From assembly GCA_965277775.1 (NCBI GenBank), contig OZ255843.1:455451-519450 (forward strand): 64,000 nt of DNA, read 5' to 3'. Position numbers and translations under genes: made by a program. The notes below the pieces were generated by a model. The model was not told the origin of the DNA, made no database searches, and saw only the letters and a program-made list of their open reading frames with translations. The stretch is from Gammaproteobacteria bacterium. Lineage in GTDB: Bacteria > Pseudomonadota > Gammaproteobacteria > CAKMZV01. This document shows positions 47,828-64,000 of the stretch, one piece after another; the first letter of the stretch is position 1, and each line of letters begins with the position of its first letter.

Positions 47828-50800
47828 ATGTCAAAATCAAAAATGAATTTTTCCTTTGATGTAGGAATGGCCTCTCTTGGCGTGGCCGTTAATAGAGGCA
47901 ACAAAATCATCCACGCAGACGCCCTCTTAATTCACTTAGAAGCGGGCTCCATAAAAGATGCCGCAACCAAACGACGACAGTATCGTACCAGACAAGCACA
48001 CAAACAACGCGAACAAGTCTTAGAAGACTTTTGGAGAAGCATTGGTAAAGAACCACTGCAACGCAAAAAATTCGAGAAAACAACAAAAGGATTTAAAAAA
48101 ACACCCGCAGATCGACGCTTAGAACAAGAATTTCCCTACGCAGGCGATAACACCGCCTACGCCTCGTCATTGTTGAGAATCATGTTGCTTGAAGGCCACC
48201 CGCTTGAGGATTGGCAAATATACAAAGCACTGAGTGCGGCCATTCAACGTAAAGGCTATGACCACAACGTGCCTTGGAAAACAAAAGACGACGACACAGA
48301 TGTCAGCGACAAAGATTTAGATTTACGCGAAGCCTTTAGTGCATACATTCGTGATATGCCTGAACAATATCAATTACCTTGTTATTTTGATGCAGCAAGA
48401 ATGGGATTGTGGTGCGAAAAAACCAAAAAAATTATTTCTGTCAAACAAGGCTCAAAGAAACCCGAACGCGCCAGAGGCTATAAGGCCGATCGAAAACTGG
48501 TTGATAAAGAATTAAGATTACTCTTGGAAGCGGCGGCCAAGCGCATACCTGAAATGCGCCTTAGCACAGAAGCCATGAATCAACTCATCTATGGCAAAGC
48601 AGAGATCAAACCAACTTCTGACAAAAGATACCCCTCCTATTCGAAGATCACTGGGTTGTTGGGGCAAAAATACCCACGCTTTGAAAATCGTATCGTCAGT
48701 AAATGTGCTTTGATTCCCCGACTGAACGTCTGTAAATCTTCAAATAAGCGGGCCATTGAAGTTGGTTTTTTAATGAAGTTGTTGAATTTACGTTATGAAT
48801 TGTATGATGAATTCACAGGTGATAAACAAGAAAAAAGTCTGAACCATGAACAAATAAAGCAAATATTCCAAGAGCTTAAAACTCAGAAAACAAAAGATTT
48901 TGAACCCGAGTCCTATGCCCAAAGGCTCAAACTGACTAATACCCAACTCAAGAAAAGAATCCAAGCGTTCAGCGGAGAGACTGCTCGGATTAAAAGCGGG
49001 CACGAAACGATAGAAAAGATCAGTATAACAGGCCGAAGTCGTTTTAGCCAGCCGGCGCTATACTTACTCAAACATATGATTTTACAAGGTCTCATACCGC
49101 GAGACTTTCATGCAGACTGTATGAAGCGCATTGAAAATTGTACAGACTCAAATAAGTTTGGGCACAAAATATTTAAAAATGCAACTTATCGTTTTTTTAA
49201 AGAAGATTTTGAATGCCTGAAGCTAATGGATGACAAAATTTACACGCCATCCATGCCCGCCAAACACTCTGACGATGTTAACCAACAAGTCGTCAACATC
49301 ATAAGCTCGTGCAATTGGCCTGAATTACGCCATAGATTAAACGTATTTGATACTGAGTTGCAAAACCTCGTTGAACAATTTGGTCAACCAGAAAGCGTTA
49401 ATTTTGAATTTATTCGTGAAGATTTTCTAAGTCTGGAAAAGAAAACGCAGTATGAAAGCCAAAGCCAACAAGGCAGAGACGAACGAGAGGCGGCAAGAAT
49501 TTCTTTAGCAGAAGCCAACATTAAGACAAACGAGCAAAACATCTTACGCTATCGATTACTGATTGAACAGAAAGGGCAATGTCCCTACACTGGAGAGGCA
49601 TTGAGCATTGCCGCCTTAGAGCATTATGATATTGATCATGTATTTCCAACATCCCAAGGTGGCCCCGATGCCTACTACAACAAGGTATTAACAAGTCACG
49701 TCGTTAATCAGAAACAAAAAGCCGATAAATTACCTTGCGAATTCATAGAGAACTGGAATAGTTACACACAACGTATAGATACAATCTATAAAGATCCTAA
49801 GAATTCCAAGAGACATTTAAGAAAACAAAAACTCTTGAGTGCCACAAGCCGAGATGAAGCAGAGGAATTAATTGAAAAATACACGGGTCTATCAGGCACC
49901 TCGTACATTGCTCGATTGGCCAGAGACATAGTATGCGCACGCTTTGGCTGGATTCCTGGGGCGAAGGATGAAACACAGAAAGTGTTTATTTTCGGTGGTG
50001 GGCTGACCAGTAAAATTGCCAAAGACAATAGTCTTTATAAAGCTCTCTCCGAAGATAACGACCCGTGGAATAAACCACGCCATGATCATCGTCACCATGC
50101 ACTTGATGCTATGGTCATTAGCTATTTAAAAGAATGGGCGCGCGATGAAACGAAGGCTGATTTTTTTACCTTTCCAAAGGGCATTGATAGACACTATTTC
50201 AAAACCAAGCTCGATGAAGTATATCCTCATTACGTCAGCAGAAGGAAACCTGCCTTGAGCGAACAGCCAAAAAAAGGTAAAGACGTCAACCGCACGGAAT
50301 TTCGTAATATCAGCAAAGACCCTGAAGCCAAAGGGCAATGGCATACCAGTAAAACGGTTACTGGTGAGGGAACCTTTCAACACGGTCATTTGATCTACTT
50401 GGATCGAAAGGACAAGGTTCGGCGTACAGCAATTCACAGTTTCCGCTCTCGTTTTCAAGAAGAAAAAATAATACAGCGCGATGAAAATAATCGCATTATT
50501 GGCTTTATCCGCTCGAGTCACTCATTGCACATAAAAGAAAACCTTTTCAAGGCTGTATTATTCGGGGGAAGTATAGAGAAACTTCCTAAGGGAGAATATT
50601 CGATTGAGAAAATACAAAAAAAATGCATCATCGAACACAGTAAAAAAGGCGAGCGCTATAGGATTGATAAAGCCAAGCTTGAAAAACAGTGTATCAGAAA
50701 TAAATTATTGGCAGGGCAAGTTTTTGTATTGCAAGGCTTTCGCCTTGACAAAGCTACAGAAATATCGGGACAATTTCGATATTCTAATGACCACGATTGC

Positions 50801-51109
50801 TTCATAAATGAAGAAACTGATGAACAAGTCATTATAAAATTTGATCGCTTGGTTACTCACCTCCATAAAAATAATTGGCTCACCAGCGATGAGTTATCAA
50901 ATACCAAAATCGTTGAAATAAATACAGCTATTTCAGGTCATAAAGATGATAAGACAGTGAATAACCTACCCGCAGGTTATTATTTAATAAAGCAGTTCCA
51001 AGGCAATTATGTACACCTCAGATCTCAGCAGGGATTAGTCTATAAGTTGACGGTAAACATTTTAAATCCAATATTTAAAGATGAGCCACCATCTACTCCA
51101 TCTTCTTAG
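47828..51109 (+). CDS. cas9: CRISPR-associated endonuclease Cas9, type II-C-like (1093 aa)
   Basis: RuvC-I FSFDVGMASLGVAV; Arg-rich bridge helix KRRQYRTRQAHKQR; RuvC-II NFEFIRE; HNH HYDIDHVFPTSQGG...NKVLT...N; RuvC-III HDHRHHALDAMV; followed by cas1-cas2 and array. Confidence 0.9.
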   Translation: MSKSKMNFSFDVGMASLGVAVNRGNKIIHADALLIHLEAGSIKDAATKRRQYRTRQAHKQREQVLEDFWRSIGKEPLQRKKFEKTTKGFKKTPADRRLEQEFPYAGDNTAYASSLLRIMLLEGHPLEDWQIYKALSAAIQRKGYDHNVPWKTKDDDTDVSDKDLDLREAFSAYIRDMPEQYQLPCYFDAARMGLWCEKTKKIISVKQGSKKPERARGYKADRKLVDKELRLLLEAAAKRIPEMRLSTEAMNQLIYGKAEIKPTSDKRYPSYSKITGLLGQKYPRFENRIVSKCALIPRLNVCKSSNKRAIEVGFLMKLLNLRYELYDEFTGDKQEKSLNHEQIKQIFQELKTQKTKDFEPESYAQRLKLTNTQLKKRIQAFSGETARIKSGHETIEKISITGRSRFSQPALYLLKHMILQGLIPRDFHADCMKRIENCTDSNKFGHKIFKNATYRFFKEDFECLKLMDDKIYTPSMPAKHSDDVNQQVVNIISSCNWPELRHRLNVFDTELQNLVEQFGQPESVNFEFIREDFLSLEKKTQYESQSQQGRDEREAARISLAEANIKTNEQNILRYRLLIEQKGQCPYTGEALSIAALEHYDIDHVFPTSQGGPDAYYNKVLTSHVVNQKQKADKLPCEFIENWNSYTQRIDTIYKDPKNSKRHLRKQKLLSATSRDEAEELIEKYTGLSGTSYIARLARDIVCARFGWIPGAKDETQKVFIFGGGLTSKIAKDNSLYKALSEDNDPWNKPRHDHRHHALDAMVISYLKEWARDETKADFFTFPKGIDRHYFKTKLDEVYPHYVSRRKPALSEQPKKGKDVNRTEFRNISKDPEAKGQWHTSKTVTGEGTFQHGHLIYLDRKDKVRRTAIHSFRSRFQEEKIIQRDENNRIIGFIRSSHSLHIKENLFKAVLFGGSIEKLPKGEYSIEKIQKKCIIEHSKKGERYRIDKAKLEKQCIRNKLLAGQVFVLQGFRLDKATEISGQFRYSNDHDCFINEETDEQVIIKFDRLVTHLHKNNWLTSDELSNTKIVEINTAISGHKDDKTVNNLPAGYYLIKQFQGNYVHLRSQQGLVYKLTVNILNPIFKDEPPSTPSS

Positions 51110-52412: not shown

Positions 52413-55400
52413 ATTATACTCTGCTGGAAAAACGGGGGGGATCAAAACGGAAAACATTGCTACAAATGCAATTTCCGCATTATACTCTGCTGGAAAAACG
52501 GGGGGGATCAAAACATTTGGAATGAGTGGTTTAGAGATCAGAAATTATACTCTGCTGGAAAAACGGGGGGGATCAAAACCTAACTGACACCTTTTGTAAA
52601 ATGGTGGCAATTATACTCTGCTGGAAAAACGGGGGGGATCAAAACCCTACACCCGTGGGAAAAATCGATAAACTGATTATACTCTGCTGGAAAAACGGGG
52701 GGGATCAAAACCAGCGGGAAATGTCCAACACAGCTTTACAAATTATACTCTGCTGGAAAAACGGGGGGGATCAAAACTGCATTTTCGGTTATGATTTTCC
52801 AGACAAAATTATACTCTGCTGGAAAAACGGGGGGGATCAAAACCCGAATACCACCCTTGACCCGTGGCATTACATTATACTCTGCTGGAAAAACGGGGGG
52901 GATCAAAACGAACCACACAAGACAGCGGTTTAATGTGGCATTATACTCTGCTGGAAAAACGGGGGGGATCAAAACGTTTGGGGTGATCGAAAACGATCAC
53001 AATTAATTATACTCTGCTGGAAAAACGGGGGGGATCAAAACTGCTCGCTTAAATGAGCGAAGGTTGGCCAATTATACTCTGCTGGAAAAACGGGGGGGAT
53101 CAAAACAAACTGGTCAAAATATACAGTAAGTATGACATTATACTCTGCTGGAAAAACGGGGGGGATCAAAACCAGCGCGCGATCATGAGGCAGCTGGGCT
53201 CAATTATACTCTGCTGGAAAAACGGGGGGGATCAAAACGTCGTACTTGCTATATATTTTGACAAGTTTATTATACTCTGCTGGAAAAACGGGGGGGATCA
53301 AAACCAGACTGACACCTTTTGTAAAATGGTGGCAATTATACTCTGCTGGAAAAACGGGGGGGATCAAAACTACCGTTTGGTCTGGGATAATTTTGAGAAA
53401 TTATACTCTGCTGGAAAAACGGGGGGGATCAAAACAATTCAGAGAGGCGGTCGCCATGCAGCATTATTATACTCTGCTGGAAAAACGGGGGGGATCAAAA
53501 CTGGCATTACTCTATTAATTTCCCTTCTTTAATTATACTCTGCTGGAAAAACGGGGGGGATCAAAACTGGCCTACTCGGCTCAATGGGCGACGCGGAATT
53601 ATACTCTGCTGGAAAAACGGGGGGGATCAAAACCGAACCGTGCTATCAAACTCACCAGCCTTAATTATACTCTGCTGGAAAAACGGGGGGGATCAAAACC
53701 CGATCGACCAACTTGTTAATGTTGACTTATTATACTCTGCTGGAAAAACGGGGGGGATCAAAACCCAAACACGACCCTTGACCCTTGGCATTATATTATA
53801 CTCTGCTGGAAAAACGGGGGGGATCAAAACAGGTAAGGCCTCTTCAACAAAGACTGGCAATTATACTCTGCTGGAAAAACGGGGGGGATCAAAACAAATC
53901 CTTCGATTTTTCGTGGACAGTCAATATTATACTCTGCTGGAAAAACGGGGGGGATCAAAACTCGGTTCGCGCTTCAGCATATAAGTCAGCGATTATACTC
54001 TGCTGGAAAAACGGGGGGGATCAAAACCAGAGAGCTAATCCCCATTCAAGAAGCGATATTATACTCTGCTGGAAAAACGGGGGGGATCAAAACTACAAAG
54101 GAGAACAAAAGGTTACTCATCCGATTATACTCTGCTGGAAAAACGGGGGGGATCAAAACTAGCTCAGCGATTGGGAAAAGGGCATCATATTATACTCTGC
54201 TGGAAAAACGGGGGGGATCAAAACCTTCGAGTGTGGTTCTTTGGACTGCTTGTTATTATACTCTGCTGGAAAAACGGGGGGGATCAAAACATCAACAGTT
54301 ATTGTAAGTTCCTTTGAAGCATTATACTCTGCTGGAAAAACGGGGGGGATCAAAACCGAACTGTGATCAGCTCTGCCACGTTCAGATTATACTCTGCTGG
54401 AAAAACGGGGGGGATCAAAACTTCGTATGCATTTAATTACATTTCACCTAGATTATACTCTGCTGGAAAAACGGGGGGGATCAAAACATACGTGAATATA
54501 TGCCGATCTTTGAACTCATTATACTCTGCTGGAAAAACGGGGGGGATCAAAACAGATTTCGAGATTTCCTTCGATATTTGCAAATTATACTCTGCTGGAA
54601 AAACGGGGGGGATCAAAACAACCTGCAGACCATTAAAGACGAACCCCGCATTATACTCTGCTGGAAAAACGGGGGGGATCAAAACTTAAAATGGAACTGC
54701 ATATCCATTATGAGTATTATACTCTGCTGGAAAAACGGGGGGGATCAAAACGATAATAGGATTGACATTGATAGCTACTTGATTATACTCTGCTGGAAAA
54801 ACGGGGGGATCAAAACAGATACTGGACTTTTAGTTCCAGTCTTTGTATTATACTCTGCTGGAAAAACGGGGGGGATCAAAACATGGGTCAAACCTAAAAC
54901 CAACTGAACCAATTATACTCTGCTGGAAAAACGGGGGGGATCAAAACACCAGCACGCTGCTGGATTAGCTGGCATTGATTATACTCTGCTGGAAAAACGG
55001 GGGGGATCAAAACTGCGGGTTGATCTGGGTAAATACTTTCAATATTATACTCTGCTGGAAAAACGGGGGGGATCAAAACCCCCAAACCAGCTCCACTGAT
55101 TCCACGACTATTATACTCTGCTGGAAAAACGGGGGGGATCAAAACCCTATGACAAGTCTTGATAAATTTATTGAAATTATACTCTGCTGGAAAAACGGGG
55201 GGGATCAAAACGGACATTTAAAATTTATAATAAAAACGAAGATTATACTCTGCTGGAAAAACGGGGGGGATCAAAACAGATACTGGACTTTTAGTTCCAG
55301 TCTTTGTATTATACTCTGCTGGAAAAACGGGGGGGATCAAAACCGGCGAACCGCCCGATTATGTTAAAGCTTTATTATACTCTGCTGGAAAAACGGGGGG

Positions 55401-57111
55401 GATCAAAACCCCCAAACGAGTTCTACCGATTCGACGACTATTATACTCTGCTGGAAAAACGGGGGGGATCAAAACTATACACCTCCAGCAACAAAAACAA
55501 CCCTTATTATACTCTGCTGGAAAAACGGGGGGGATCAAAACCTTATTGAGCTCGGGATATTCCCAGATCCAATTATACTCTGCTGGAAAAACGGGGGGGA
55601 TCAAAACTGCGGTTTGATCCTTGACACGGCTGGTCACATTATACTCTGCTGGAAAAACGGGGGGGATCAAAACCATTGCTTTTGCGCTGAATTCCATCGG
55701 GCAATTATACTCTGCTGGAAAAACGGGGGGGATCAAAACTGCGGGCAGTATTTGCTATTTGGTGAGCGTATTATACTCTGCTGGAAAAACGGGGGGGATC
55801 AAAACCAGCACGCACACCATAATTGCATTACACACATTATACTCTGCTGGAAAAACGGGGGGGATCAAAACTATCGCTTGGTGTGGGACAATTTCGAGAA
55901 ATTATACTCTGCTGGAAAAACGGGGGGGATCAAAACGTATCTGTATCAGCACTATTTTTTATAAGATTATACTCTGCTGGAAAAACGGGGGGGATCAAAA
56001 CCATTGAGATGAGCGTAGCTGAATGGTCGAGATTATACTCTGCTGGAAAAACGGGGGGGATCAAAACTGATGATGAAGTTGCAAGACGTGCACGCGCATT
56101 ATACTCTGCTGGAAAAACGGGAGGGATCAAAACCGACGATGTCTCGTCGCCCAGGTATAGCGGATTATACTCTGCTGGAAAAACGGGGGGGATCAAAACC
56201 TGGCGATGTGTACCCCACCGATTACATTAATTATACTCTGCTGGAAAAACGGGGGGGATCAAAACTCGTACAATGGGCTTGAATATCCAACAGACATTAT
56301 ACTCTGCTGGAAAAACGGGGGGGATCAAAACGGATTGATCGGTGTCGATAAACGGGCGAAAATTATACTCTGCTGGAAAAACGGGGGGGATCAAAACCGG
56401 CCATACAGAATGAAAAAAACAAAAAGTATTATACTCTGCTGGAAAAACGGGGGGGATTATACTCTGCTGGAAAAACGGGGGGGATCAAAACGTATTACCA
56501 CCTAACGAAGCCCACTTGGATATTATACTCTGCTGGAAAAACGGGGGGGATCAAAACTGAATAAACAGACATAGTAACTCCTAATTAATTATACTCTGCT
56601 GGAAAAACGGGGGGGATCAAAACTAGGAGGTGCAAGAATGATAATGTCGTTGAATTATACTCTGCTGGAAAAACGGGGGGGATCAAAACTAGGAGGTGCA
56701 AGAATGATAATGTCGTTGAATTATACTCTGCTGGAAAAACGGGGGGGATCAAAACCTAATTCTTTGATTATGTATTTCCCTTCTATTATACTCTGCTGGA
56801 AAAACGGGGGGGATCAAAACGATGAAGGCGTTCTGATGAACAGTCACAGAATTATACTCTGCTGGAAAAACGGGGGGGATCAAAACTTATAATTTCTATT
56901 TCGTCGTCAACGTCCATTATACTCTGCTGGAAAAACGGGGGGGATCAAAACGAAACATTGCATTCTGACTTCGTTGGCTTTATTATACTCTGCTGGAAAA
57001 ACGGGGGGGATCAAAACTAAAACCCCGGTCAAAGACTGATCGGGGGGATTATACTCTGCTGGAAAAACGGGGGGGATTATACTCTGCTGGAAAAACGGGG
57101 GGGATCAAAAC
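52413..57111 (-). CRISPR. CRISPR array, ~71 x 36-bp repeat, spacers 29-31 bp; plus-strand repeat ATTATACTCTGCTGGAAAAACGGGGGGGATCAAAAC; canonical type II orientation is minus strand GTTTTGATCCCCCCCGTTTTTCCAGCAGAGTATAAT
   Basis: directly visible 66-bp periodicity over 4.7 kb; first repeat 52413-52448, last full repeat ends 57111; orientation inferred from GTTTTG...AAT form and the TATAAT at the repeat end. Confidence 0.97.
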
Positions 57112-57114
57112 TCC

Positions 57115-57303
57115 TTGGAGCAAACAGAACAAATTGAAGGGCATGAGGTCAAAGATTTTAGTGTGAGTGAAACGATGAAATATGATCATCTACCACAGAT
57201 TGATGTCGCCCACAAATGGGGGTTTGACGTTAGATTTTCGTTCATAGACAAACCTGATGTTCTTGGGAAGCTGTATCCTACTGATAAAAAAATATTTAAC
57301 TAA
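57115..57303 (+). CDS. hypothetical small protein
   Basis: 62-aa ORF immediately after array; coding status uncertain. Confidence 0.3.
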   Translation: MEQTEQIEGHEVKDFSVSETMKYDHLPQIDVAHKWGFDVRFSFIDKPDVLGKLYPTDKKIFN

Positions 57304-57364
57304 TGAATAAGGCAGTGCATTTTTTCACGAATTAGTTCACTATGCGGATCATCTTTGTGGTAGC

Positions 57365-57619
57365 ATGCTTCTTAAAACGCCGAGCGAAAGTGAGATTGTT
57401 GCTGAATTTGGCGCAGCGGTCTTGAAAAGAATGCATATGGATAGCACTGATGAATACCTTAAAGAAAGTATCCATTATGTCGAATATCATGCAAGAAAAA
57501 CTGGGAAGGGTGCATATGAGGCCGCAACAGACCTTATACAGCGATCATTGTCTGCAATTGAATTGATTGACCAAACGGCTCAGGAAATTAAAAACAAGAC
57601 AAAGTCTTCTAAAGAATAG
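57365..57619 (+). CDS. hypothetical small protein
   Basis: 84-aa ORF, plausible composition. Confidence 0.35.
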   Translation: MLLKTPSESEIVAEFGAAVLKRMHMDSTDEYLKESIHYVEYHARKTGKGAYEAATDLIQRSLSAIELIDQTAQEIKNKTKSSKE

Positions 57620-57654: not shown

Positions 57655-58866
57655 ATGAGAAATTCAATTTTAGGTTTAATCGCTATATCAATTGCTATGA
57701 TGTTAAGTGGTTGCGGTTCTGCAAAAGATGATCCAATAATTCCAATCAGCACAAACACTCGTACCATTCAGACACAACAGGTTAATGAGGTCCGCAATGC
57801 AATGACAAATGTCGATGCAAGTCTGGTTGCATACCAGCGCGCAACCTCCGCATCAGATATACAGGCTCAAACAAACGCTTTAACACTAATGGCATCCAGC
57901 TTAGAGCAGCTCACAACAGCCGTGCGAGTAGCTCAACCATATTTAGATTACTCGTTATACAGAGCAGTTGCTGACCAGATGGGGAGGATCGATCAAGCGG
58001 GCATGCAAAACGTTCAGGTTATGGCTCAAATGGCGCAGGTAGAAATTATTACGGCAGTTGGTTTTTTAAGAACAAGCCGCGCACAGCTTCAAAGCACAAC
58101 AGATAGACTAAGTGTGCTCGATCGATCGATGGCTGCAACAAATGCTAGGTTAAACGTTATTGAGTCCGGCACAACCACATCAGTCGATAAAGTCAGGCTT
58201 TTAGTCCTTGCAGAAGTTGCCCGCTTAACAAGCTCTGATACAGCCATTCAGAACAGGATAACCACAGTGACCAACTCGCTCACAACGGCTATCGCTGATA
58301 ACACAAGGCTGATTGCTCAAAACTCATCGAACACCGCCGCCCAGTTGTTGAGCATAAATTCATCATTAACAAACATCATTGATCAAAACAATGCGCAAGG
58401 GCTCATAAATACATCAACAACCAGAGCGATTGAGGCAATGAGGGCAGTTATTGGTGAGCAGATAAGCCAAGAGGTGGCGAAACTACAAGCAAATATAAAT
58501 GCTAACCACAGCACATTAACAGCGCGAATTGATTTGTTGCAACAAGCAGTTGACGTGCTCCAAACAACAACAGTCATATCAATTGTCAGCAGTCTAAACG
58601 CCCATGTCATTACCCAAGGTGTTGTAAATAGCTCTTTAAGCTCATCAATCTTGAGCTTACAAACATCATTAACGAACTACATCGCATCATCAATTTTGTC
58701 ATTGTCTAACTCTTTATCAGCCACATCATCAACAGTCAATGCCCGGATTGATCAACTGCATTCAATTGTGGGGGCATTGCGAAATGAAGACTACCAGCTA
58801 GCTGTGCTAATAAGCAGTTTAACCAGTCGGGTGACTAGTAACTCAACCACCACCCAATCCAGATAA
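57655..58866 (+). CDS. lipoprotein with long alpha-helical Ser/Thr/Asn/Gln-rich repeat region
   Basis: lipobox MMLSGCGS; the C-terminal ~220 aa is ~90% identical to the N-terminus of the next ORF. Confidence 0.6.
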   Translation: MRNSILGLIAISIAMMLSGCGSAKDDPIIPISTNTRTIQTQQVNEVRNAMTNVDASLVAYQRATSASDIQAQTNALTLMASSLEQLTTAVRVAQPYLDYSLYRAVADQMGRIDQAGMQNVQVMAQMAQVEIITAVGFLRTSRAQLQSTTDRLSVLDRSMAATNARLNVIESGTTTSVDKVRLLVLAEVARLTSSDTAIQNRITTVTNSLTTAIADNTRLIAQNSSNTAAQLLSINSSLTNIIDQNNAQGLINTSTTRAIEAMRAVIGEQISQEVAKLQANINANHSTLTARIDLLQQAVDVLQTTTVISIVSSLNAHVITQGVVNSSLSSSILSLQTSLTNYIASSILSLSNSLSATSSTVNARIDQLHSIVGALRNEDYQLAVLISSLTSRVTSNSTTTQSR

Positions 58867-58907
58867 GCCTCATCCAAGCAGAGCTGCTCAATCTTAATGC
58901 TCATAGA

Positions 58908-61900
58908 TTGTCTATTCTTGCACAAGTTGCACGGCTCTCAAGTACTGATGCGGCCATTCAGAGTAGGATAACGACAGTAACCAACACGCTTATAACGGCT
59001 ATCGCAGACAACATACGACTAATTGCTCAAAACTCATCGAGCACTGCTGCCCAGTTGTTGAGCATAAACTCCTCATTGACAAGCATCATTGCCCAAAACA
59101 ATGCGCAAGGGCTCATCAACTCATCCACCACCAGAGCGATTGAAGCAATGAGAATGGCCATTAGCGCTCAGATCACCCAAGAAGTGGCCAAATTACAAAC
59201 AAATATAAACGCCAATCACAGCACATTAACAGCAAGAATTGATTTGTTGCAGCAAGCAATAGACGTTCTCCAAACAACCACTGTCATATCAATTATCAAC
59301 AGCTTGAACGCGCACGTCATCACACAAGGGGTTGTGAACAGCTCACTAACCGCCTCAATATTGAGCTTACAGGCCTCCTTAACCAACTACATTACTTCAT
59401 CGATTTTATCGCTGTCAACCTCTTTAACAGTGACCTCCTCAACTATAAATGCTCGGATCGACCAACTCAACTGGGTTATTGGCGGGCTGGTCAGCGAGGA
59501 TGCAAGGTTAGCTCTGGTTATTGCTGGATTGACCAGCTCTATCACCTCCAGTTTGAACAACTCATCGAACCAAATTTCCATACTTCAGGCACAGGTCGCA
59601 CAGCTTACGGCTAGTGTAAGCGCACTACAAGCACTCCATAGAACACCGGACGTTCCAATTGGGACGCCCACTAATGTTGCTGGTAAAGCGGTAGACGGAT
59701 TAGTCATAGGCGGAACAGTAAGGGTTTACACCATCAATGAAAGCGACTACTCACCAAACATTCTTATTGGCTCGACGAAAACAGATTCAAACGGGGCGTT
59801 CAGTGTCACTCTTTACGGGCTTACCGCAACACAAATATTACTTTATGAAGTTTCTGGCGGCTATTACATTGAAGAGTGGACACAACAACGATTTGATCTT
59901 CGAACAGGTGATAAACTGTATGCAATTGATAGGGTTGAGACGACATCAGGCACGGCCAATGTTTCAATAACCATCTCAGGCTTTACAAATCTAACATATG
60001 CACTGGCGCTTTATCGTAAAAACCACACATACATTGACTCGTCACTAAGAATTAGACCAACAATTTCGCAGGCAAGGGATTATGCGACACCGATTGTGAA
60101 TTTAGTATTAGGCGGAGTGAATGCTGAAAAAACTGTTTTCAAAGACATCACATCATCTGACTACGCTGTTTCCAAGCCACAATTTGCTTCTGACGTTGAT
60201 TCATTTTGGTACTCATTTTATGTTTCGGGCGTTTCAGGTTTAATGGCTAGTGAAAGCGTGAAGCAAGGCGCTAATTTTTATTCAATTGATTTTTGGAAGG
60301 CGCTTTATGATGACGTTTTAACTGACGGTGTTATTGACGGGAAAGGCATCAATTTAAAGCAGATAGGGATAGGTATTCGTCCGCTTGAGCCTGATATGCT
60401 CAGAACAGAGGCTATGCGCTTTGCGAATCAATTCAAAACATCTAAACTACAACACATCCGATTTGACACAAACGGGCATTCAAGTTTTGAACAAAAAATG
60501 AACATTGTGCATAGCTCGACCGATCCTATATTCGGCAAAATAAGCGCCAGCCCACTTGATGGTGACCCACCCATAATAAAAGCCAACCCGATTGCAGGCG
60601 CTATTACAACCAACCATGTGGTGGTTACTATAAGCGACGCATCATCAATAACAAGTATGATCTACTCCCTACTTGATAGCAATAACACCGAACTCAGTAG
60701 GACGGTTTATGATCTGCTCAATCATTCTGGCGGTAATGCATACAAGTTAAGCGTTGATCTTAACCAAACTTCAGGAATATACAAAATGGTTATAACTGCC
60801 TCCGATGGCCATTTGTTAAGCCGTTCAACAGTAACATTCTCCATTGTCAATGACGCGCCAAAACTTTCAATAACATCATCCACCCGAACCACAACCGGGA
60901 CGATAACAATACACGGCTCTTATTCTCTCCCATACCCTCAATTTACGGACATACAAAGCATCTCTATAAGCGATACGGTCAATGGTATGGGGACAAAGCA
61001 GGCAATAATTAATACAGGAACAAAAACATTCACAAGCTCCTTTTCTGCAAACTCCTCTGGCCTGTACACGATTGACATTAAAGTTTGCGATACTATTGGC
61101 AACTGTCACACATATGTCATCAAAAGATCCGTTGATAAAGACAGCCCGCGCATTTTTTCATCGGCCTTCGGTCAAGGTGCAGGACTAAAACAATGGTACA
61201 TATCGCCCTCTCTTGGTTACCAGGCATTTTGGGGGCGGATAAATCCTTATTTCGTTGAGCGAACCGTTAGCCAGCTAAAAATATCAGGCGCTTACGATAG
61301 AATAAGCAGTCATTTGTTTTCAAACGGCAATTATAAACTTGGTGCTACAATAATTACTGAGCGCGAATTAGACCAAGCGAACATTAACTATTATGCCTTT
61401 AACGCTGATGACACAGGACTACCAGCATCAACTCCGCTTGACGATTTAGTTATTAAATTAAAATATAGCACGGCAAGCTATAACGCACACTATTACAAAT
61501 CGGGTCCATCCTCTTACACCTCTATCCCACCCACATCCAAAACAATAACCATTGTTAAAGAAACGACGATGAGCGCGCGCACATTTGCAACAGCTCTTGG
61601 CACAAAATCAAAAAGGGTGATAATACCTCTAACAACTGAGTTCTGGGGCAATAGCCTTATCAAAGAGAACTTGTTTACAACCCACATTTTTGAAATAAGC
61701 GTGTGTGATAAGGCGGGACTGTGCACAACCAAAACATTTGGCCTTTTACTGGCTATTGAATCGCCCACACAGAAGTCATTGAACGGATCACTAACTACTT
61801 TGCAAAAAGATTTAAATTTTTTGCAAGGAGTTACACCTCTTGTGAATAGAAAACGCCAAATGGGTGGTGAAAAACAGTTTTACAAATATTCAGTTAAGAA

Positions 61901-62906
61901 CACAGAGGTGATGCCTTTGTTCATCAACATTGGCTCGATCAATTCGGTGGCCACCCTCACAAGAACATTCCAACAGAAAACTGTTCTCAATGTTCCCGAA
62001 TGGAATCGAAGCATGTTTGCTGTGAGATCGGTTTCATGCTCCGATCCCGACGTTACTAAACCAAACACAACCGCTGTAACACAAATCAGCCTTAAAGAGA
62101 ACTTTCGAGTTTCAACGCTGTTGTCCAAAAACCAGCCCGACCCAATAACTGTGGGAGAACCGTGCAAATTCAGAGATTTTGACGGAAGAACACTTTACTC
62201 TGTAACAACATCCACTGGCTTTCATTTTACGGATTGTAGTCGCGATCAAGGTTACTACACTGCAACAACCTCCACCTACAAGGCCTTCTCTACAACACCA
62301 ACGAACACTTATTACAACAACAGCTCCTGTTCGTACCGCACACCATACACTGCAATATGCCAAAGAGGTAGCTCTAAAGCAGGGTACCAGGACTACCTTT
62401 GCACAAAACATCACACGCACACCCGGACAAGACAAAATGGAGTGTTCCACAATAATATTAGGCCATATCACACAACAAAAACCGTATCTGTGCCATACGT
62501 GATTTCAAGATATTTTTACAATAGACACGTACTGACATCTAGCACAACAACAATTAAGGAGACAACAACAGACCACCCTTCGCATTTTAACGCTAAGCTA
62601 GGCGGACTTGATTTCGGCATCAGCACGGGATCGTCCACCTCTTGGTTCAAGATACCGCCCGGCGAAACCATTGAGTTTTTCGATTCTTTGTTGGTGAACG
62701 CGCCTTCTTGGCATGACAACAATGGTACTGATTTAGACAACATCCTCACCGAAGGTGTCTACAGAAAGGACATCTCCCTTGAATTCAACTATAAACCAAC
62801 ATTCGTAGTGAAAATCAAACGAGCAGATGACATTAATTCACTCACAACCCCTTTGATTGAAGAAACATCCGACAATCTACCAGCCCAACAAATACTACTA
62901 AAATAG
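58908..62906 (+). CDS. very large (1332 aa) putative surface/adhesin-like protein
   Basis: N-terminal segment duplicated from the upstream lipoprotein, then ~1100 aa Thr/Ser-rich beta-type sequence with many Cys near the C-terminus; no family recognised. Confidence 0.55.
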   Translation: MSILAQVARLSSTDAAIQSRITTVTNTLITAIADNIRLIAQNSSSTAAQLLSINSSLTSIIAQNNAQGLINSSTTRAIEAMRMAISAQITQEVAKLQTNINANHSTLTARIDLLQQAIDVLQTTTVISIINSLNAHVITQGVVNSSLTASILSLQASLTNYITSSILSLSTSLTVTSSTINARIDQLNWVIGGLVSEDARLALVIAGLTSSITSSLNNSSNQISILQAQVAQLTASVSALQALHRTPDVPIGTPTNVAGKAVDGLVIGGTVRVYTINESDYSPNILIGSTKTDSNGAFSVTLYGLTATQILLYEVSGGYYIEEWTQQRFDLRTGDKLYAIDRVETTSGTANVSITISGFTNLTYALALYRKNHTYIDSSLRIRPTISQARDYATPIVNLVLGGVNAEKTVFKDITSSDYAVSKPQFASDVDSFWYSFYVSGVSGLMASESVKQGANFYSIDFWKALYDDVLTDGVIDGKGINLKQIGIGIRPLEPDMLRTEAMRFANQFKTSKLQHIRFDTNGHSSFEQKMNIVHSSTDPIFGKISASPLDGDPPIIKANPIAGAITTNHVVVTISDASSITSMIYSLLDSNNTELSRTVYDLLNHSGGNAYKLSVDLNQTSGIYKMVITASDGHLLSRSTVTFSIVNDAPKLSITSSTRTTTGTITIHGSYSLPYPQFTDIQSISISDTVNGMGTKQAIINTGTKTFTSSFSANSSGLYTIDIKVCDTIGNCHTYVIKRSVDKDSPRIFSSAFGQGAGLKQWYISPSLGYQAFWGRINPYFVERTVSQLKISGAYDRISSHLFSNGNYKLGATIITERELDQANINYYAFNADDTGLPASTPLDDLVIKLKYSTASYNAHYYKSGPSSYTSIPPTSKTITIVKETTMSARTFATALGTKSKRVIIPLTTEFWGNSLIKENLFTTHIFEISVCDKAGLCTTKTFGLLLAIESPTQKSLNGSLTTLQKDLNFLQGVTPLVNRKRQMGGEKQFYKYSVKNTEVMPLFINIGSINSVATLTRTFQQKTVLNVPEWNRSMFAVRSVSCSDPDVTKPNTTAVTQISLKENFRVSTLLSKNQPDPITVGEPCKFRDFDGRTLYSVTTSTGFHFTDCSRDQGYYTATTSTYKAFSTTPTNTYYNNSSCSYRTPYTAICQRGSSKAGYQDYLCTKHHTHTRTRQNGVFHNNIRPYHTTKTVSVPYVISRYFYNRHVLTSSTTTIKETTTDHPSHFNAKLGGLDFGISTGSSTSWFKIPPGETIEFFDSLLVNAPSWHDNNGTDLDNILTEGVYRKDISLEFNYKPTFVVKIKRADDINSLTTPLIEETSDNLPAQQILLK

Positions 62907-63019: not shown

Positions 63020-63427
63020 TTGGGTTTTTCAATATGTGTATTATTGATATTACAGGTTCATCAAATCACATTATTTTTTTATAAAAAAACCTTAACTAAA
63101 AGCAGTTTGATTAAGAATGGAGATTATGTTTTAATAGAAAGGAATGTTTTGAATAAGAAGGGGTTGCCTAATTCAGAGCATCATCTAATTAAGATGATAA
63201 TAGCAACTCCCAGTGATCTTTCAAGTAATACTTTAGAGGGGATAGTAGTGAACAAGAAACTCCAACCAAACACAAAATTGATGAAAGAGAGAGGATACTT
63301 AATGGGTGATATGTCGAATGATAACTGTTATGTGGCTGTGAACAGTCACCCCATGAGTATTGACAGTAGATATTTTGGTTGTGTTCAAAAAAAGCAAATA
63401 CTAAAAGAATTAATACCATTGATATGA
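63020..63427 (+). CDS. S26-family signal-peptidase-like protein (TraF/LepB-like short form)
   Basis: GDYVLIER and SIDSRYFG motifs resemble LepB GDNRDNSxDSRYxG box; 135 aa. Confidence 0.45.
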   Translation: MGFSICVLLILQVHQITLFFYKKTLTKSSLIKNGDYVLIERNVLNKKGLPNSEHHLIKMIIATPSDLSSNTLEGIVVNKKLQPNTKLMKERGYLMGDMSNDNCYVAVNSHPMSIDSRYFGCVQKKQILKELIPLI

Positions 63428-63581: not shown

Positions 63582-63941
63582 ATGCGGATAATGCTCAAGA
63601 TGGCCAGACCGATTAATAGACCACACATGGAACCAACCCATGGCCAACTAAGCTTATTCACTTCTGGCAGTGAAAAAGAGAGCATTGTTGTTGAAAAAAT
63701 TGATGACGTGGCAAAATTAAACAACATCGACTTAATTCCTGCCAAAAAGATCAAATCAGACCGCATTAAAGCAAATGAAGAAGTTTTACAAATTCTTGCA
63801 AAATCTGAAACCTTTTCGCACAATGAACTCAAAATATTATCTGCTTATAGTGGTTGGGGTGGCATTCCAGATTATTTTGAAAATGAAGATAATTTGGTTA
63901 GAAAAACAAATCCAGAAGAGTATGACAAGATTAAACGTTAG
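63582..63941 (+). CDS. hypothetical protein
   Basis: 119-aa ORF; overlaps an alternative minus-strand ORF 63476-63832, so only one can be real. Confidence 0.3.
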   Translation: MRIMLKMARPINRPHMEPTHGQLSLFTSGSEKESIVVEKIDDVAKLNNIDLIPAKKIKSDRIKANEEVLQILAKSETFSHNELKILSAYSGWGGIPDYFENEDNLVRKTNPEEYDKIKR

Positions 63942-64000
63942 ATCCTTTCATCCTACTACACACCCAGTAATATCACTTCCGCAATAGCAGACATATTCGG

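What the first reader, a model, noticed from the sequence alone, without database searches (positions are those of the whole stretch)
58200..59590. Tandem ~650-bp duplication links a lipoprotein to a 1332-aa surface protein
The last ~220 codons of the lipoprotein gene at 57655-58866 are ~90% identical to the first ~220 codons of the next gene, 58908-62906. The lipoprotein stretch begins ...AEVARLTSSDTAIQNRITTVTNSLTTAIADN..., and the giant-protein stretch begins ...AQVARLSSTDAAIQSRITTVTNTLITAIADN.... The two ORFs are separated by 40 bp. Substitutions are of all types and are not adenine-biased, so this is not a DGR template/variable repeat pair. It looks like a duplicated module in a surface or adhesin-like protein family. 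It could mediate homologous recombination that fuses or splits the two genes, giving antigenic or phase variation. Alternatively it marks a recent frameshift splitting one gene.
Basis: seen in the sequence. Interest (0 to 1): 0.55.

Follow-up and report, generated by a model that had tools for sequence, protein, structure and literature searches.

The report
One stalked lipoprotein gene, frameshift-split
The two neighbouring genes are the two halves of a single giant surface-lipoprotein gene whose long helical stalk contains an ancient internal 237-codon tandem repeat; a one-base deletion inside the first repeat copy has cut the gene in two, which is an ordinary kind of gene decay (or assembly error), not a switching device.

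Summary
It is 79% identical in protein and 76-80% in DNA. The copies lie 710 nt apart, which is 237 codons minus one base. dS is about 1.4 and dN/dS is 0.09.

The 41-nt "intergenic spacer" is coding sequence. Adding one C after position 58860 joins 57655-62906 into one 1750-codon ORF. A 1744-aa protein on record (P0002) appears to come from the same 2.06-Mb genome. It has exactly this fused form and matches the restored ORF at all of the first 602 residues.

Remote relatives of the part after the stalk all begin with a lipoprotein signal, and ORF2 alone has none. A distant syntenic relative (P0015) also carries lipobox, helical stalk and head in one ORF.

So this is one gene: lipid anchor, about 640 aa of helical rod built from duplicated modules, then a beta-sandwich, a helical domain, Ig-like domains and a beta-rich C-terminus. 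It is interrupted by a 1-nt deletion. The deletion is probably a recent real frameshift in a decaying mobile-element remnant beside a CRISPR array; an assembly indel is the main rival.

Recombination between the copies would give an in-frame fusion, but it is unlikely because the longest identical run is 23 nt.

The more interesting side result is the paralogue mosaic. The first ~745 aa are nearly identical, and the ~1000-aa head is only 44% identical.

The parts
57655..58866 (+). ORF1 (403 aa): the 5' part of the interrupted gene. It holds the lipoprotein signal, the N-terminal helical region and repeat copy 1, and ends at a TAA created by the frameshift.
   Evidence: Residues 1-402 are 100% identical to P0002.
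57655..57714 (+). Lipoprotein signal peptide MRNSILGLIAISIAMMLSGC, with lipobox L-S-G-C and the lipidated Cys at codon 20.
   Evidence: Read from the translation. The same position holds a nearly invariant Cys in 24 remote relatives (column 37) and in P0015.
58195..58904 (+). Tandem repeat copy 1 (710 nt, which is 237 codons minus one base). It contains the frameshift, the premature stop and the apparent intergenic spacer.
58859..58860 (+). Frameshift site. The window reads TCC-AGA-TAA where the fused paralogue encodes S-Q-I-S (TCC-CAG-ATA-AGC is inferred), so the window has CC where CCC is inferred.
   Evidence: Inserting one C after 58860 gives a 1750-codon ORF.
58867..58907 (+). Apparent 41-nt intergenic spacer. 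In the restored frame it encodes ...LIQAELLNLNAHR, as in the paralogue.
   Evidence: No promoter-like or terminator-like site lies here on the + strand.
58905..59615 (+). Tandem repeat copy 2 (711 nt, 237 codons).
58908..62906 (+). ORF2 (1332 aa, TTG start, no signal peptide, no Shine-Dalgarno motif seen upstream): the 3' part of the interrupted gene.
59886..59942 (+). Mosaic boundary with the paralogue P0002. Upstream identity is 97% or more; downstream it is 20-60% (44% overall).
59670..59975 (+). Beta-sandwich domain (ORF2 aa 255-356). It is conserved across the family directly after the lipobox and resembles the carboxypeptidase-regulatory-like fold.
   Evidence: AF2 model with pLDDT 83.8, alignment A3, and a weak sub-threshold PF13620 hit in relative P0012.
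59979..60527 (+). Helical domain (ORF2 aa 358-540) with the family's most conserved motif, S-I-x-F-W-x-x-x-x-D-D-x-x-x-D-G-x-x-D-G.
60573..61133 (+). Two Ig-like beta-sandwich domains (ORF2 aa 556-742).
   Evidence: AF2 model, Foldseek matches to tandem Ig/FN3 structures only, and Big_7/Big_13 Pfam hits at the aligned positions in relatives.
61188..62903 (+). C-terminal beta-rich, Cys-containing region (ORF2 aa 761-1332). It is shared with P0002, P0007 and P0008, and its fold is unresolved.
   Evidence: The AF2 model has pLDDT 53.9, too low to use.

Best explanation
ORF1 and ORF2 are one gene.

The intact form is a lipoprotein of about 1750 aa with these parts in order:
- A signal peptide with lipobox, giving a lipid anchor.
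- About 640 residues of proline-free amphipathic alpha-helix with a coherent 3.6-residue hydrophobic period, forming a long rod or stalk.
- A head made of a beta-sandwich, a helical domain, two Ig-like domains and a ~570-aa beta-rich C-terminal region.

The stalk grew by module duplication. Both copies have been kept under purifying selection, so it acts as a length-adding structural element and not as a recombination device.

In this copy of the gene, loss of one C (CCC to CC at 58859-60), near the 3' end of repeat copy 1, shifts the frame. Translation stops two codons later. The result is a 403-aa anchored stalk stump plus a 1332-codon remainder with no export signal and no recognisable ribosome-binding site.

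I infer that the remainder is not made, or not exported, so this copy is functionally dead. The genome keeps a full-length paralogue with a different head.

I consider the deletion most likely real and recent, because the surrounding mobile-element remnant is also decaying.

Status of each step:
- Shown: the single-gene architecture, the position of the 1-nt defect, the age of the repeat and the selection on it, and the lipoprotein nature of the family.
- Inferred: surface exposure and an adhesin-like role, loss of function, and that the indel is biological and not an assembly error.

Confidence that this is one interrupted gene is about 0.9. Confidence that the interruption is biological is about 0.65.
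For: Fused paralogue:
- P0002 (1744 aa) is recorded on a contig of the same length, 2,064,107 bp, as ORF1 and ORF2.
- It equals ORF1 at residues 1-402.
- It reads ...SNSTTTQSQISLIQAELLNLNAHRLSILAQVARL... across the junction.
- Inserting one C after 58860 reproduces this exactly. The result is a single 1750-codon ORF with 602 of the first 602 residues identical.

Repeat geometry and age:
- The offset of 710 nt equals 3 x 237 minus 1.
- Frame 0 upstream of the TTG encodes the homologue of the linker that follows copy 2.
- 71 of 108 differences fall at third codon positions.
- dS = 1.36, dN = 0.128 and dN/dS = 0.094.

Family evidence:
- An exhaustive HMMER search found 97 remote relatives of ORF2 aa 241-1332.
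- All 24 that were aligned begin with a signal peptide and lipobox Cys, directly followed by the domain that starts at ORF2 aa ~250.
- P0015, in syntenic locus L003, has lipobox, ~850-aa helical stalk with its own internal repeats and the same head start in one ORF. Its stalk-head junction (LQAQ...AL..PEVPTG) is conserved.

Structure:
- Hydrophobic periodicity is 3.60 residues with z = 25.8 over aa 25-660, and there are no prolines in the repeats.
- The AF2 head model has pLDDT 83.8.

Signals and context:
- No promoter-like or terminator-like site lies between the ORFs.
- The next gene has an in-frame TAG at 63939-41, with homology to plasmid SNF2/N6-methylase genes continuing across it.
- An ArdC-like fragment lies in two frames at 57115-57619 (weak evidence).
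Against: - ORF2 has no other defect in 1332 codons. This fits a very recent lesion, but it fits a sequencing indel or continued use of ORF2 equally well.
- The paralogue's DNA could not be retrieved, so CCC at the site is inferred from its protein sequence.
- 'Same genome' rests only on identical contig-length metadata.
- The sequencing platform and read support are unknown. One of 72 CRISPR repeats has G6 instead of G7, so homopolymer-length differences do occur in this assembly.
- The function of the head is unknown. There is no Pfam, NCBIfam, PHROG or PDB sequence match, and the fold matches are generic Ig/FN3 only.
Confidence: 0.62

Rival explanations
1. Assembly or sequencing indel. The organism's gene is intact (CCC), and the deposited consensus dropped one C. 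ORF1 and ORF2 would then be an annotation artefact of a single functional 1750-aa lipoprotein gene.
For: - The defect is a single base in a short C run.
- Everything else in the 5.25-kb gene is intact, and the first 602 residues are identical to the paralogue.
- The assembly contains at least one other homopolymer-length oddity, a G6 in place of G7 in one CRISPR repeat.
- The closest relative found is a MAG, so the source may also be a metagenome-derived assembly of modest coverage.
Against: - A 2-3-nt run is a poor candidate for homopolymer error.
- The neighbouring genes carry lesions that are not indels, or are larger ones: an in-frame TAG and a fragmented ArdC-like gene. These point to real decay of the island.
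- Reads mis-mapped from the intact paralogue would add the C, not remove it.
Confidence: 0.25
2. Reversible switch. The gene would be turned back on in one of two ways. Either recombination between the two 237-codon copies deletes 710 nt and gives an in-frame 1513-codon gene, or gene conversion from the near-identical 2.2-kb 5' region of the paralogue restores it. This would be a form of phase or antigenic variation.
For: - A 710-nt deletion between the copies gives an uninterrupted 1513-codon ORF.
- The paralogue shares about 745 codons at 97-100% protein identity across the frameshift site and then diverges sharply. This looks like a past recombination boundary and would be a good conversion donor.
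Against: - The two copies within the gene are only 76-80% identical, with no identical run longer than 23 nt and saturated synonymous divergence. They have therefore not been exchanging sequence.
- There is no invertase, no repeat tract and no silent-cassette array in the window.
- Only two paralogues are known.
- No population data are available.
Confidence: 0.07
3. Two genuine, independently expressed paralogous genes that share a module: a 403-aa stalk lipoprotein and a 1332-aa protein starting at TTG 58908.
For: Both ORFs are intact, and both are called as separate proteins in the public record (P0003 and P0001).
Against: - The 'spacer' and ORF1's last codons are in-frame coding sequence in the paralogue.
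- ORF2 has no signal peptide, whereas every aligned relative is a lipoprotein.
- No Shine-Dalgarno motif precedes the TTG, and no promoter-like site was found.
- The 710-nt offset is one base short of a whole number of codons.
Confidence: 0.04
4. Programmed ribosomal frameshift or transcriptional slippage joins the two ORFs during expression.
For: A -1 shift within 58842-58863 would produce the full-length protein.
Against: - The sequence around the site (CAA TCC AGA TAA) has no X XXY YYZ slippery heptamer and no homopolymer of 7 or more.
- The paralogue encodes the same junction in one frame without any shift.
Confidence: 0.02

Closest known systems
Uncharacterised lipoprotein family found here by exhaustive HMMER (P0007-P0101; no Pfam or NCBIfam model covers the conserved N-terminal beta-sandwich plus helical domain)
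   Same: The relatives carry a lipobox signal, then a beta-sandwich (G-x-A-x-D-G-L-I...T-D-x-x-G-x-Y...G-G-Y-Y-x-E-E), a helical domain with the D-x-x-x-D-G-x-L-D-G motif, and then Ig-like (Big_7/Big_13) domains. The closest two, P0007 and P0008, also share the C-terminal Cys-containing region.
   Different: In nearly all relatives the head follows the lipobox directly. Here, in P0002 and in P0015, a helical stalk of about 640-850 aa built from tandem modules sits between anchor and head.
Modular stalked surface adhesins: trimeric autotransporter adhesins (YadA/BadA type) and Gram-positive conjugation or aggregation adhesins
   Same: These also have a long repetitive coiled-coil stalk whose length is set by duplicated modules, presenting a binding head away from the cell surface. 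The present gene lies among conjugative-element genes (TrbI, Toprim, S26/TraF-like, ArdC-like, SNF2-methylase). Conjugative elements are known to encode surface adhesins needed for efficient transfer (PMC8092201, title and abstract).
   Different: Here the anchor is an N-terminal lipid, not a C-terminal YadA beta-barrel or an LPXTG motif. No TAA Pfam domains are present. The hydrophobic period is 3.6 residues, not 3.5. Oligomeric state, surface exposure and ligand are all untested.
Variable surface lipoprotein families with a shared 5' region and divergent 3' regions (for example Mycoplasma Vsa/Vlp; from my own knowledge)
   Same: The two paralogues have an essentially identical lipoprotein N-terminal ~745 aa and strongly divergent C-terminal parts. 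Both contain tandem repeat modules. One copy is out of frame.
   Different: Only two copies are known. No site-specific recombinase, inversion sites or short hypermutable tract is present. The repeats within the gene are anciently diverged, not homogenised.
Ordinary frameshifted (split) genes in host-associated or reduced genomes and in decaying mobile elements
   Same: A single-base indel gives two adjacent same-strand ORFs whose products are colinear with one protein elsewhere. The neighbouring genes are also disrupted.
   Different: Nothing essential differs. The internal tandem repeat merely made the two halves look like paralogues.

Membership tests
Bacterial lipoprotein (Lgt/LspA-processed) | N-terminal signal peptide ending in a lipobox [LVI][ASTVI][GAS]C | tested here: met
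   ORF1 begins MRNSILGLIAISIAMMLSGC, judged by inspection because no SignalP-type tool was available. The Cys aligns with the nearly invariant Cys of 24 relatives. ORF2 alone has no such signal.
Single gene split by a frameshift (pseudogene or artefact) | The two ORFs are colinear with one uninterrupted homologue, and a 1-nt change restores a single ORF | tested here: met
   P0002 covers both ORFs. Adding one C after 58860 gives a 1750-codon ORF whose junction is identical to P0002.
Single gene split by a frameshift (pseudogene or artefact) | The indel is present in the organism's DNA and is not an assembly error | not testable with these tools
   No reads are available. Indirect support comes only from the other lesions in the island.
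Diversity-generating retroelement TR/VR pair | Adenine-specific substitutions between the repeats, with a reverse transcriptase nearby | tested here: not met
   Substitutions are spread over all base types (35 from A, 27 from T, 23 from G, 23 from C) and 71 of 108 fall at third codon positions. No RT-like ORF lies in the neighbourhood.
Contingency locus (simple-sequence phase variation) | A long homopolymer or short tandem repeat tract at the frameshift site | tested here: not met
   The site is CC within CAATCCAGATAA.
Programmed -1 ribosomal frameshift | A slippery heptamer X XXY YYZ at the shift site, usually with a downstream structure | tested here: not met
   No slippery heptamer lies in 58842-58866. 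The paralogue needs no shift.
Trimeric autotransporter adhesin | C-terminal YadA-like membrane anchor with head and stalk Pfam domains | tested here: not met
   Pfam finds nothing in ORF1, ORF2 or P0002 at E up to 0.1-1 apart from noise.
Ig-like (Big_7/Big_13) domain proteins | A match to the Pfam models above the gathering score | tested here: inconclusive
   ORF2 itself has no hit. Relatives hit Big_7 and Big_13 at aligned positions. The AF2 model shows two Ig-like sandwiches, and Foldseek matches tandem Ig/FN3 structures at probability 1.0 with TM-scores of 0.4-0.48 normalised to the target.
Carboxypeptidase-regulatory-like domain (PF13620) | A match to the Pfam model above the gathering score | tested here: inconclusive
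   ORF2 has no hit. Relative P0012 has only a sub-threshold hit at the aligned position (17 bits against a 32.3-bit cut-off). The model is a beta-sandwich.
Alpha-helical coiled-coil or rod | Long proline-free segments with a coherent hydrophobic periodicity of about 3.5-3.67 residues | tested here: met
   The period is 3.60 residues, with z = 25.8 over aa 25-660 and z of about 12 in each repeat copy. The repeats contain no proline. Oligomeric state was not tested, and no structure prediction was made for this part.

The most novel reading that the evidence does not exclude
The two paralogous loci could form a simple head-swapping system. They share a 2.2-kb 5' region encoding the anchor and stalk, kept identical by gene conversion, and it is joined to alternative heads of ~1000 aa that are 44% identical. 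Frameshift and repair by conversion from the sister copy, or by deletion between the stalk repeats, would then decide which head is displayed. This would be a new family of stalked variable surface lipoproteins carried by CRISPR-adjacent conjugative-element remnants in an uncultured gammaproteobacterial lineage.
Probability: 0.1. Interest if true: 0.55.

Novelty: new member of a known kind. Interest (0 to 1): 0.25.

Why it matters
For annotation, 57655-62906 should be treated as one interrupted gene (or one intact gene, if the reads show CCC), not as a lipoprotein plus a signal-less giant protein.

The case also shows how an internal tandem repeat can make the halves of a broken gene look like recombining paralogues.

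Beyond that, the work defines an undescribed and widespread lipoprotein family made of a beta-sandwich, a D-G-x-x-D-G helical domain and Ig-like domains. A rare sub-branch of this family has acquired a very long 3.6-periodic helical stalk through module duplication. That sub-branch sits next to type II CRISPR-Cas and conjugation-gene remnants in two distant relatives. This is a modest lead for work on symbiont or mobile-element surface adhesins.

Tried and rejected
Searches that found no named family or useful match:
- Pfam, NCBIfam and PHROGs scans and a PDB sequence search of ORF1, ORF2 and P0002 gave nothing above noise.
- The word-indexed protein search found only the self match and P0002, even when given the head alone or the family profile.
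- Foldseek of the head model against PDB and BFVD gave only generic tandem Ig/FN3 matches.
- The AF2 model of the C-terminal 572 aa reached pLDDT 53.9, too poor to search with.
- One literature search found no description of this family.

Attempts to retrieve related DNA:
- A genome-contig scan with the two-paralogue alignment found no relative. The species representative (OZ255827.1, 96% FtsI identity) therefore appears to lack the gene, at least at the motifs used.
- Viral contigs and metagenome-contig scans found nothing. One profile was too divergent to use.
- Exact look-ups of ORF1, ORF2, P0002 and pyrG found no gene positions on record. The paralogue's DNA and its neighbours could not be examined.
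- The cluster look-up put ORF1 with unrelated 55-aa proteins. I discarded this as spurious.

Ideas considered and rejected:
- DGR: rejected on the substitution spectrum.
- Simple-sequence phase variation and programmed frameshifting: rejected because there is no repeat tract and no slippery site.
- Phage tail-fibre origin: rejected because neither PHROGs nor viral contigs gave a match.
- CRISPR self-targeting of the island: rejected because no spacer matches elsewhere in the window.
Full report
**1. The observation**

The window holds two same-strand ORFs. ORF1 is 57655-58866 (403 aa, ATG start) and ORF2 is 58908-62906 (1332 aa, TTG start).

BLASTP aligns ORF1 residues 184-395 with ORF2 residues 3-214 without gaps, at 79% identity and E = 5e-91. 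In DNA, 58207-58757 matches 58917-59467 at 80% with no gaps. Over the 636 codon-aligned bases the identity is 75.6%. The offset is 710 nt.

So the repeat is real and far beyond chance, but it is clearly less similar than the "~90%" reported. Substitutions involve all bases, so this is not a DGR pattern.

**2. The two ORFs are one gene**

Three independent observations show this.

*(a) Geometry.* The offset of 710 nt is 237 codons minus one base. ORF2's frame is open upstream of its TTG back to 58842. There it encodes LNHHPIQISLIQAELLNLNAHR. This is the homologue of the linker that follows copy 2 (NNSSNQISILQAQVAQLTAS). The repeat therefore continues through ORF1's stop codon and the 41-nt "spacer", but in the other frame.

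*(b) A fused paralogue.* Among 5.8 billion proteins the only relatives found by the indexed search are ORF2 itself and P0002 (1744 aa). Both, and ORF1 too, are recorded on a contig of 2,064,107 bp.
- P0002 is identical to ORF1 over residues 1-402.
- It continues ...SNSTTTQSQISLIQAELLNLNAHRLSILAQVARL... into the ORF2 sequence.
- Inserting a single C after window position 58860 (TCC-AGA-TAA becomes TCC-CAG-ATA-A) yields one uninterrupted 1750-codon ORF, 57655-62906.
- The first 602 residues of that ORF are identical to P0002, and there are only six differences in the first 760.

*(c) The family is exported and ORF2 is not.* An exhaustive HMMER search with ORF2 residues 241-1332 found 97 remote relatives. 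In an alignment of 24 of them, every one starts with a signal peptide and a lipobox cysteine. These are followed directly by the domain that begins at about ORF2 residue 250. ORF2 starts MSILAQVARLSS..., with no signal. I see no Shine-Dalgarno motif before its TTG. No promoter-like or terminator-like site lies between the ORFs.

A further relative, P0015, has lipobox, an ~850-aa helical stalk with internal repeats of its own and the same head start in one ORF. Its stalk-head junction is recognisably conserved.

**3. The age and nature of the duplication**

On the fused protein the repeat is two complete 237-aa units: aa 181-417 and 418-654, or window 58195-58904 and 58905-59615.

Of the 108 differences in the best-aligned 551 nt, 71 fall at third codon positions. 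Nei-Gojobori estimates over 212 codons give dS = 1.36, dN = 0.128 and dN/dS = 0.094.

The duplication is therefore old. Both copies have long been translated and constrained, and they have not been homogenising each other. Each unit also contains a weaker ~101-aa sub-repeat (family D5).

The whole region from residue 25 to 660 shows a coherent 3.60-residue hydrophobic periodicity (z = 25.8). The repeats contain no proline. This is what a long amphipathic alpha-helical rod looks like. I take the repeat to be a stalk-lengthening module.

**4. The rest of the protein**

With the family alignment, AlphaFold2 models ORF2 residues 241-760 at mean pLDDT 83.8 and pTM 0.70. The model has:
- a beta-sandwich,
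- a helical domain carrying the family's most conserved motif (...D-D-x-x-x-D-G-x-x-D-G...),
- two Ig-like sandwiches.

Foldseek against PDB and BFVD returns only generic tandem Ig/FN3 matches. Relatives hit Big_7 and Big_13 at the aligned positions.

The last 572 residues are beta-rich and contain cysteines. They are shared with P0002, P0007 and P0008, but the model is too poor to interpret (pLDDT 53.9).

No Pfam, NCBIfam, PHROG or PDB sequence match exists for any part.

The most likely role is a lipid-anchored, long-stalked binding protein at the cell surface. This is an inference from the architecture and was not tested.

**5. Context**

The gene lies 570 nt downstream of a 72-repeat type II CRISPR array (52413-57083), which follows cas9 and cas1. 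Around it are conjugative-element-type genes in poor condition:
- an ArdC-like fragment spread over two frames at 57115-57619 (weak evidence, E = 7e-3);
- a short S26 (TraF-like) peptidase at 63020-63427;
- a gene from 63582 that resembles plasmid SNF2/N6-methylase proteins and carries an in-frame TAG at 63939-41, with homology continuing across the stop.

P0015's locus (L003, a low-coverage metagenome contig) has the same order: cas1, cas2, a short CRISPR array, a TrbI fragment, a Toprim protein, a membrane protein and the giant lipoprotein.

The organism is an uncultured gammaproteobacterium. Its FtsI is 96% identical to that of MAG chromosome OZ255827.1, and that genome gave no relative of the gene.

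**6. Is the break real, an artefact or a switch?**

The decay of the neighbouring genes includes a substitution-type nonsense codon. The C run is short. An intact paralogue exists, which would relax selection. Together these make a genuine, recent frameshift the most likely explanation.

An assembly indel cannot be excluded without reads, for two reasons. ORF2 is otherwise flawless. One CRISPR repeat has G6 where the others have G7.

Deleting 710 nt between the copies gives an intact 1513-codon ORF. However, the copies share no identical run longer than 23 nt and show saturated synonymous divergence.

Programmed frameshifting and simple-sequence phase variation lack the required sequence features.

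**7. A more interesting side result**

The two paralogues are 97-100% identical through residue ~745 of the fused protein. That span covers anchor, stalk and most of the first beta-sandwich. Identity then drops within about 15 residues to 20-60%, or 44% overall across the ~1000-aa head.

The break falls inside a domain, which suggests a recombination or gene-conversion boundary and not a difference in constraint. Whether this reflects head exchange or variation cannot be tested without the paralogue's DNA and population data.

**8. Verdict**

The finding is real, but it is explained by ordinary processes. An ancient internal tandem repeat lies in one giant stalked lipoprotein gene. That gene is now interrupted by a one-base deletion, either in the organism or in the assembly. 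It is a new, uncharacterised member of a familiar kind of thing: a modular stalked surface protein and a split gene.

Noticed in passing
window 52413-57083: Large type II CRISPR array of 72 copies of a 36-nt repeat (ATTATACTCTGCTGGAAAAACGGGGGGGATCAAAAC) with 29-30-nt spacers. One spacer is duplicated, one repeat has G6 instead of G7 (near 54782), and one repeat is partially duplicated at 56418-56492. No spacer matches anything else in the window. The 'ORFs' listed inside it, such as 53053-53532, are artefacts of the repeats.
   Followed up: partly
window 47828-51109: The 1093-aa Cas9 scores well above the cut-off on NCBIfam's 'Cas9d' model (637 bits against 375), but the match covers only residues 8-813. 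The subtype was not examined further.
   Followed up: no
window 59886-59942, and protein P0002 (elsewhere in the same genome): There is a sharp mosaic boundary between the two paralogues. Identity is 97% or more for the first ~745 aa and 44% for the ~1000-aa head. The break lies inside the first beta-sandwich domain, which suggests a gene-conversion or recombination end point.
   Followed up: partly
L003 1-10135 (ENA ERZ25072490, ctg118704): A distant relative has the same gene order: cas1, cas2, a short CRISPR array, a TrbI fragment, a Toprim_3 protein, a 418-aa membrane protein and a giant stalked lipoprotein (P0015). The lipoprotein's 3' part is broken into several frames, but the contig has only 3.4x coverage, so these breaks may be errors.
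   Followed up: partly
window 63582-64000: A gene resembling the N-terminus of plasmid-borne SNF2 helicase/N6-methylase proteins has an in-frame TAG at 63939-63941. Homology (YYTP...) continues after the stop, so it is probably a pseudogene. The window ends before this can be judged fully.
   Followed up: partly
window 57115-57619: Two short ORFs in different frames together give a weak ArdC-like match (HELVH metallopeptidase-type motif; tblastn E = 7e-3, in one alignment spanning both pieces). They are probably a frameshifted, truncated remnant.
   Followed up: partly
window 57727-59634 (fused protein aa 25-660): The hydrophobic periodicity is exactly 3.60 residues (18 residues per 5 turns) and stays coherent over more than 600 residues. 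It is neither the heptad value of 3.5 nor the hendecad value of 3.67, which is unusual for a coiled-coil-like stalk.
   Followed up: partly
protein look-up: The 90% cluster assigned to ORF1 has unrelated 55-aa zinc-ribbon-like proteins as representative and members. This looks like a database clustering artefact.
   Followed up: no
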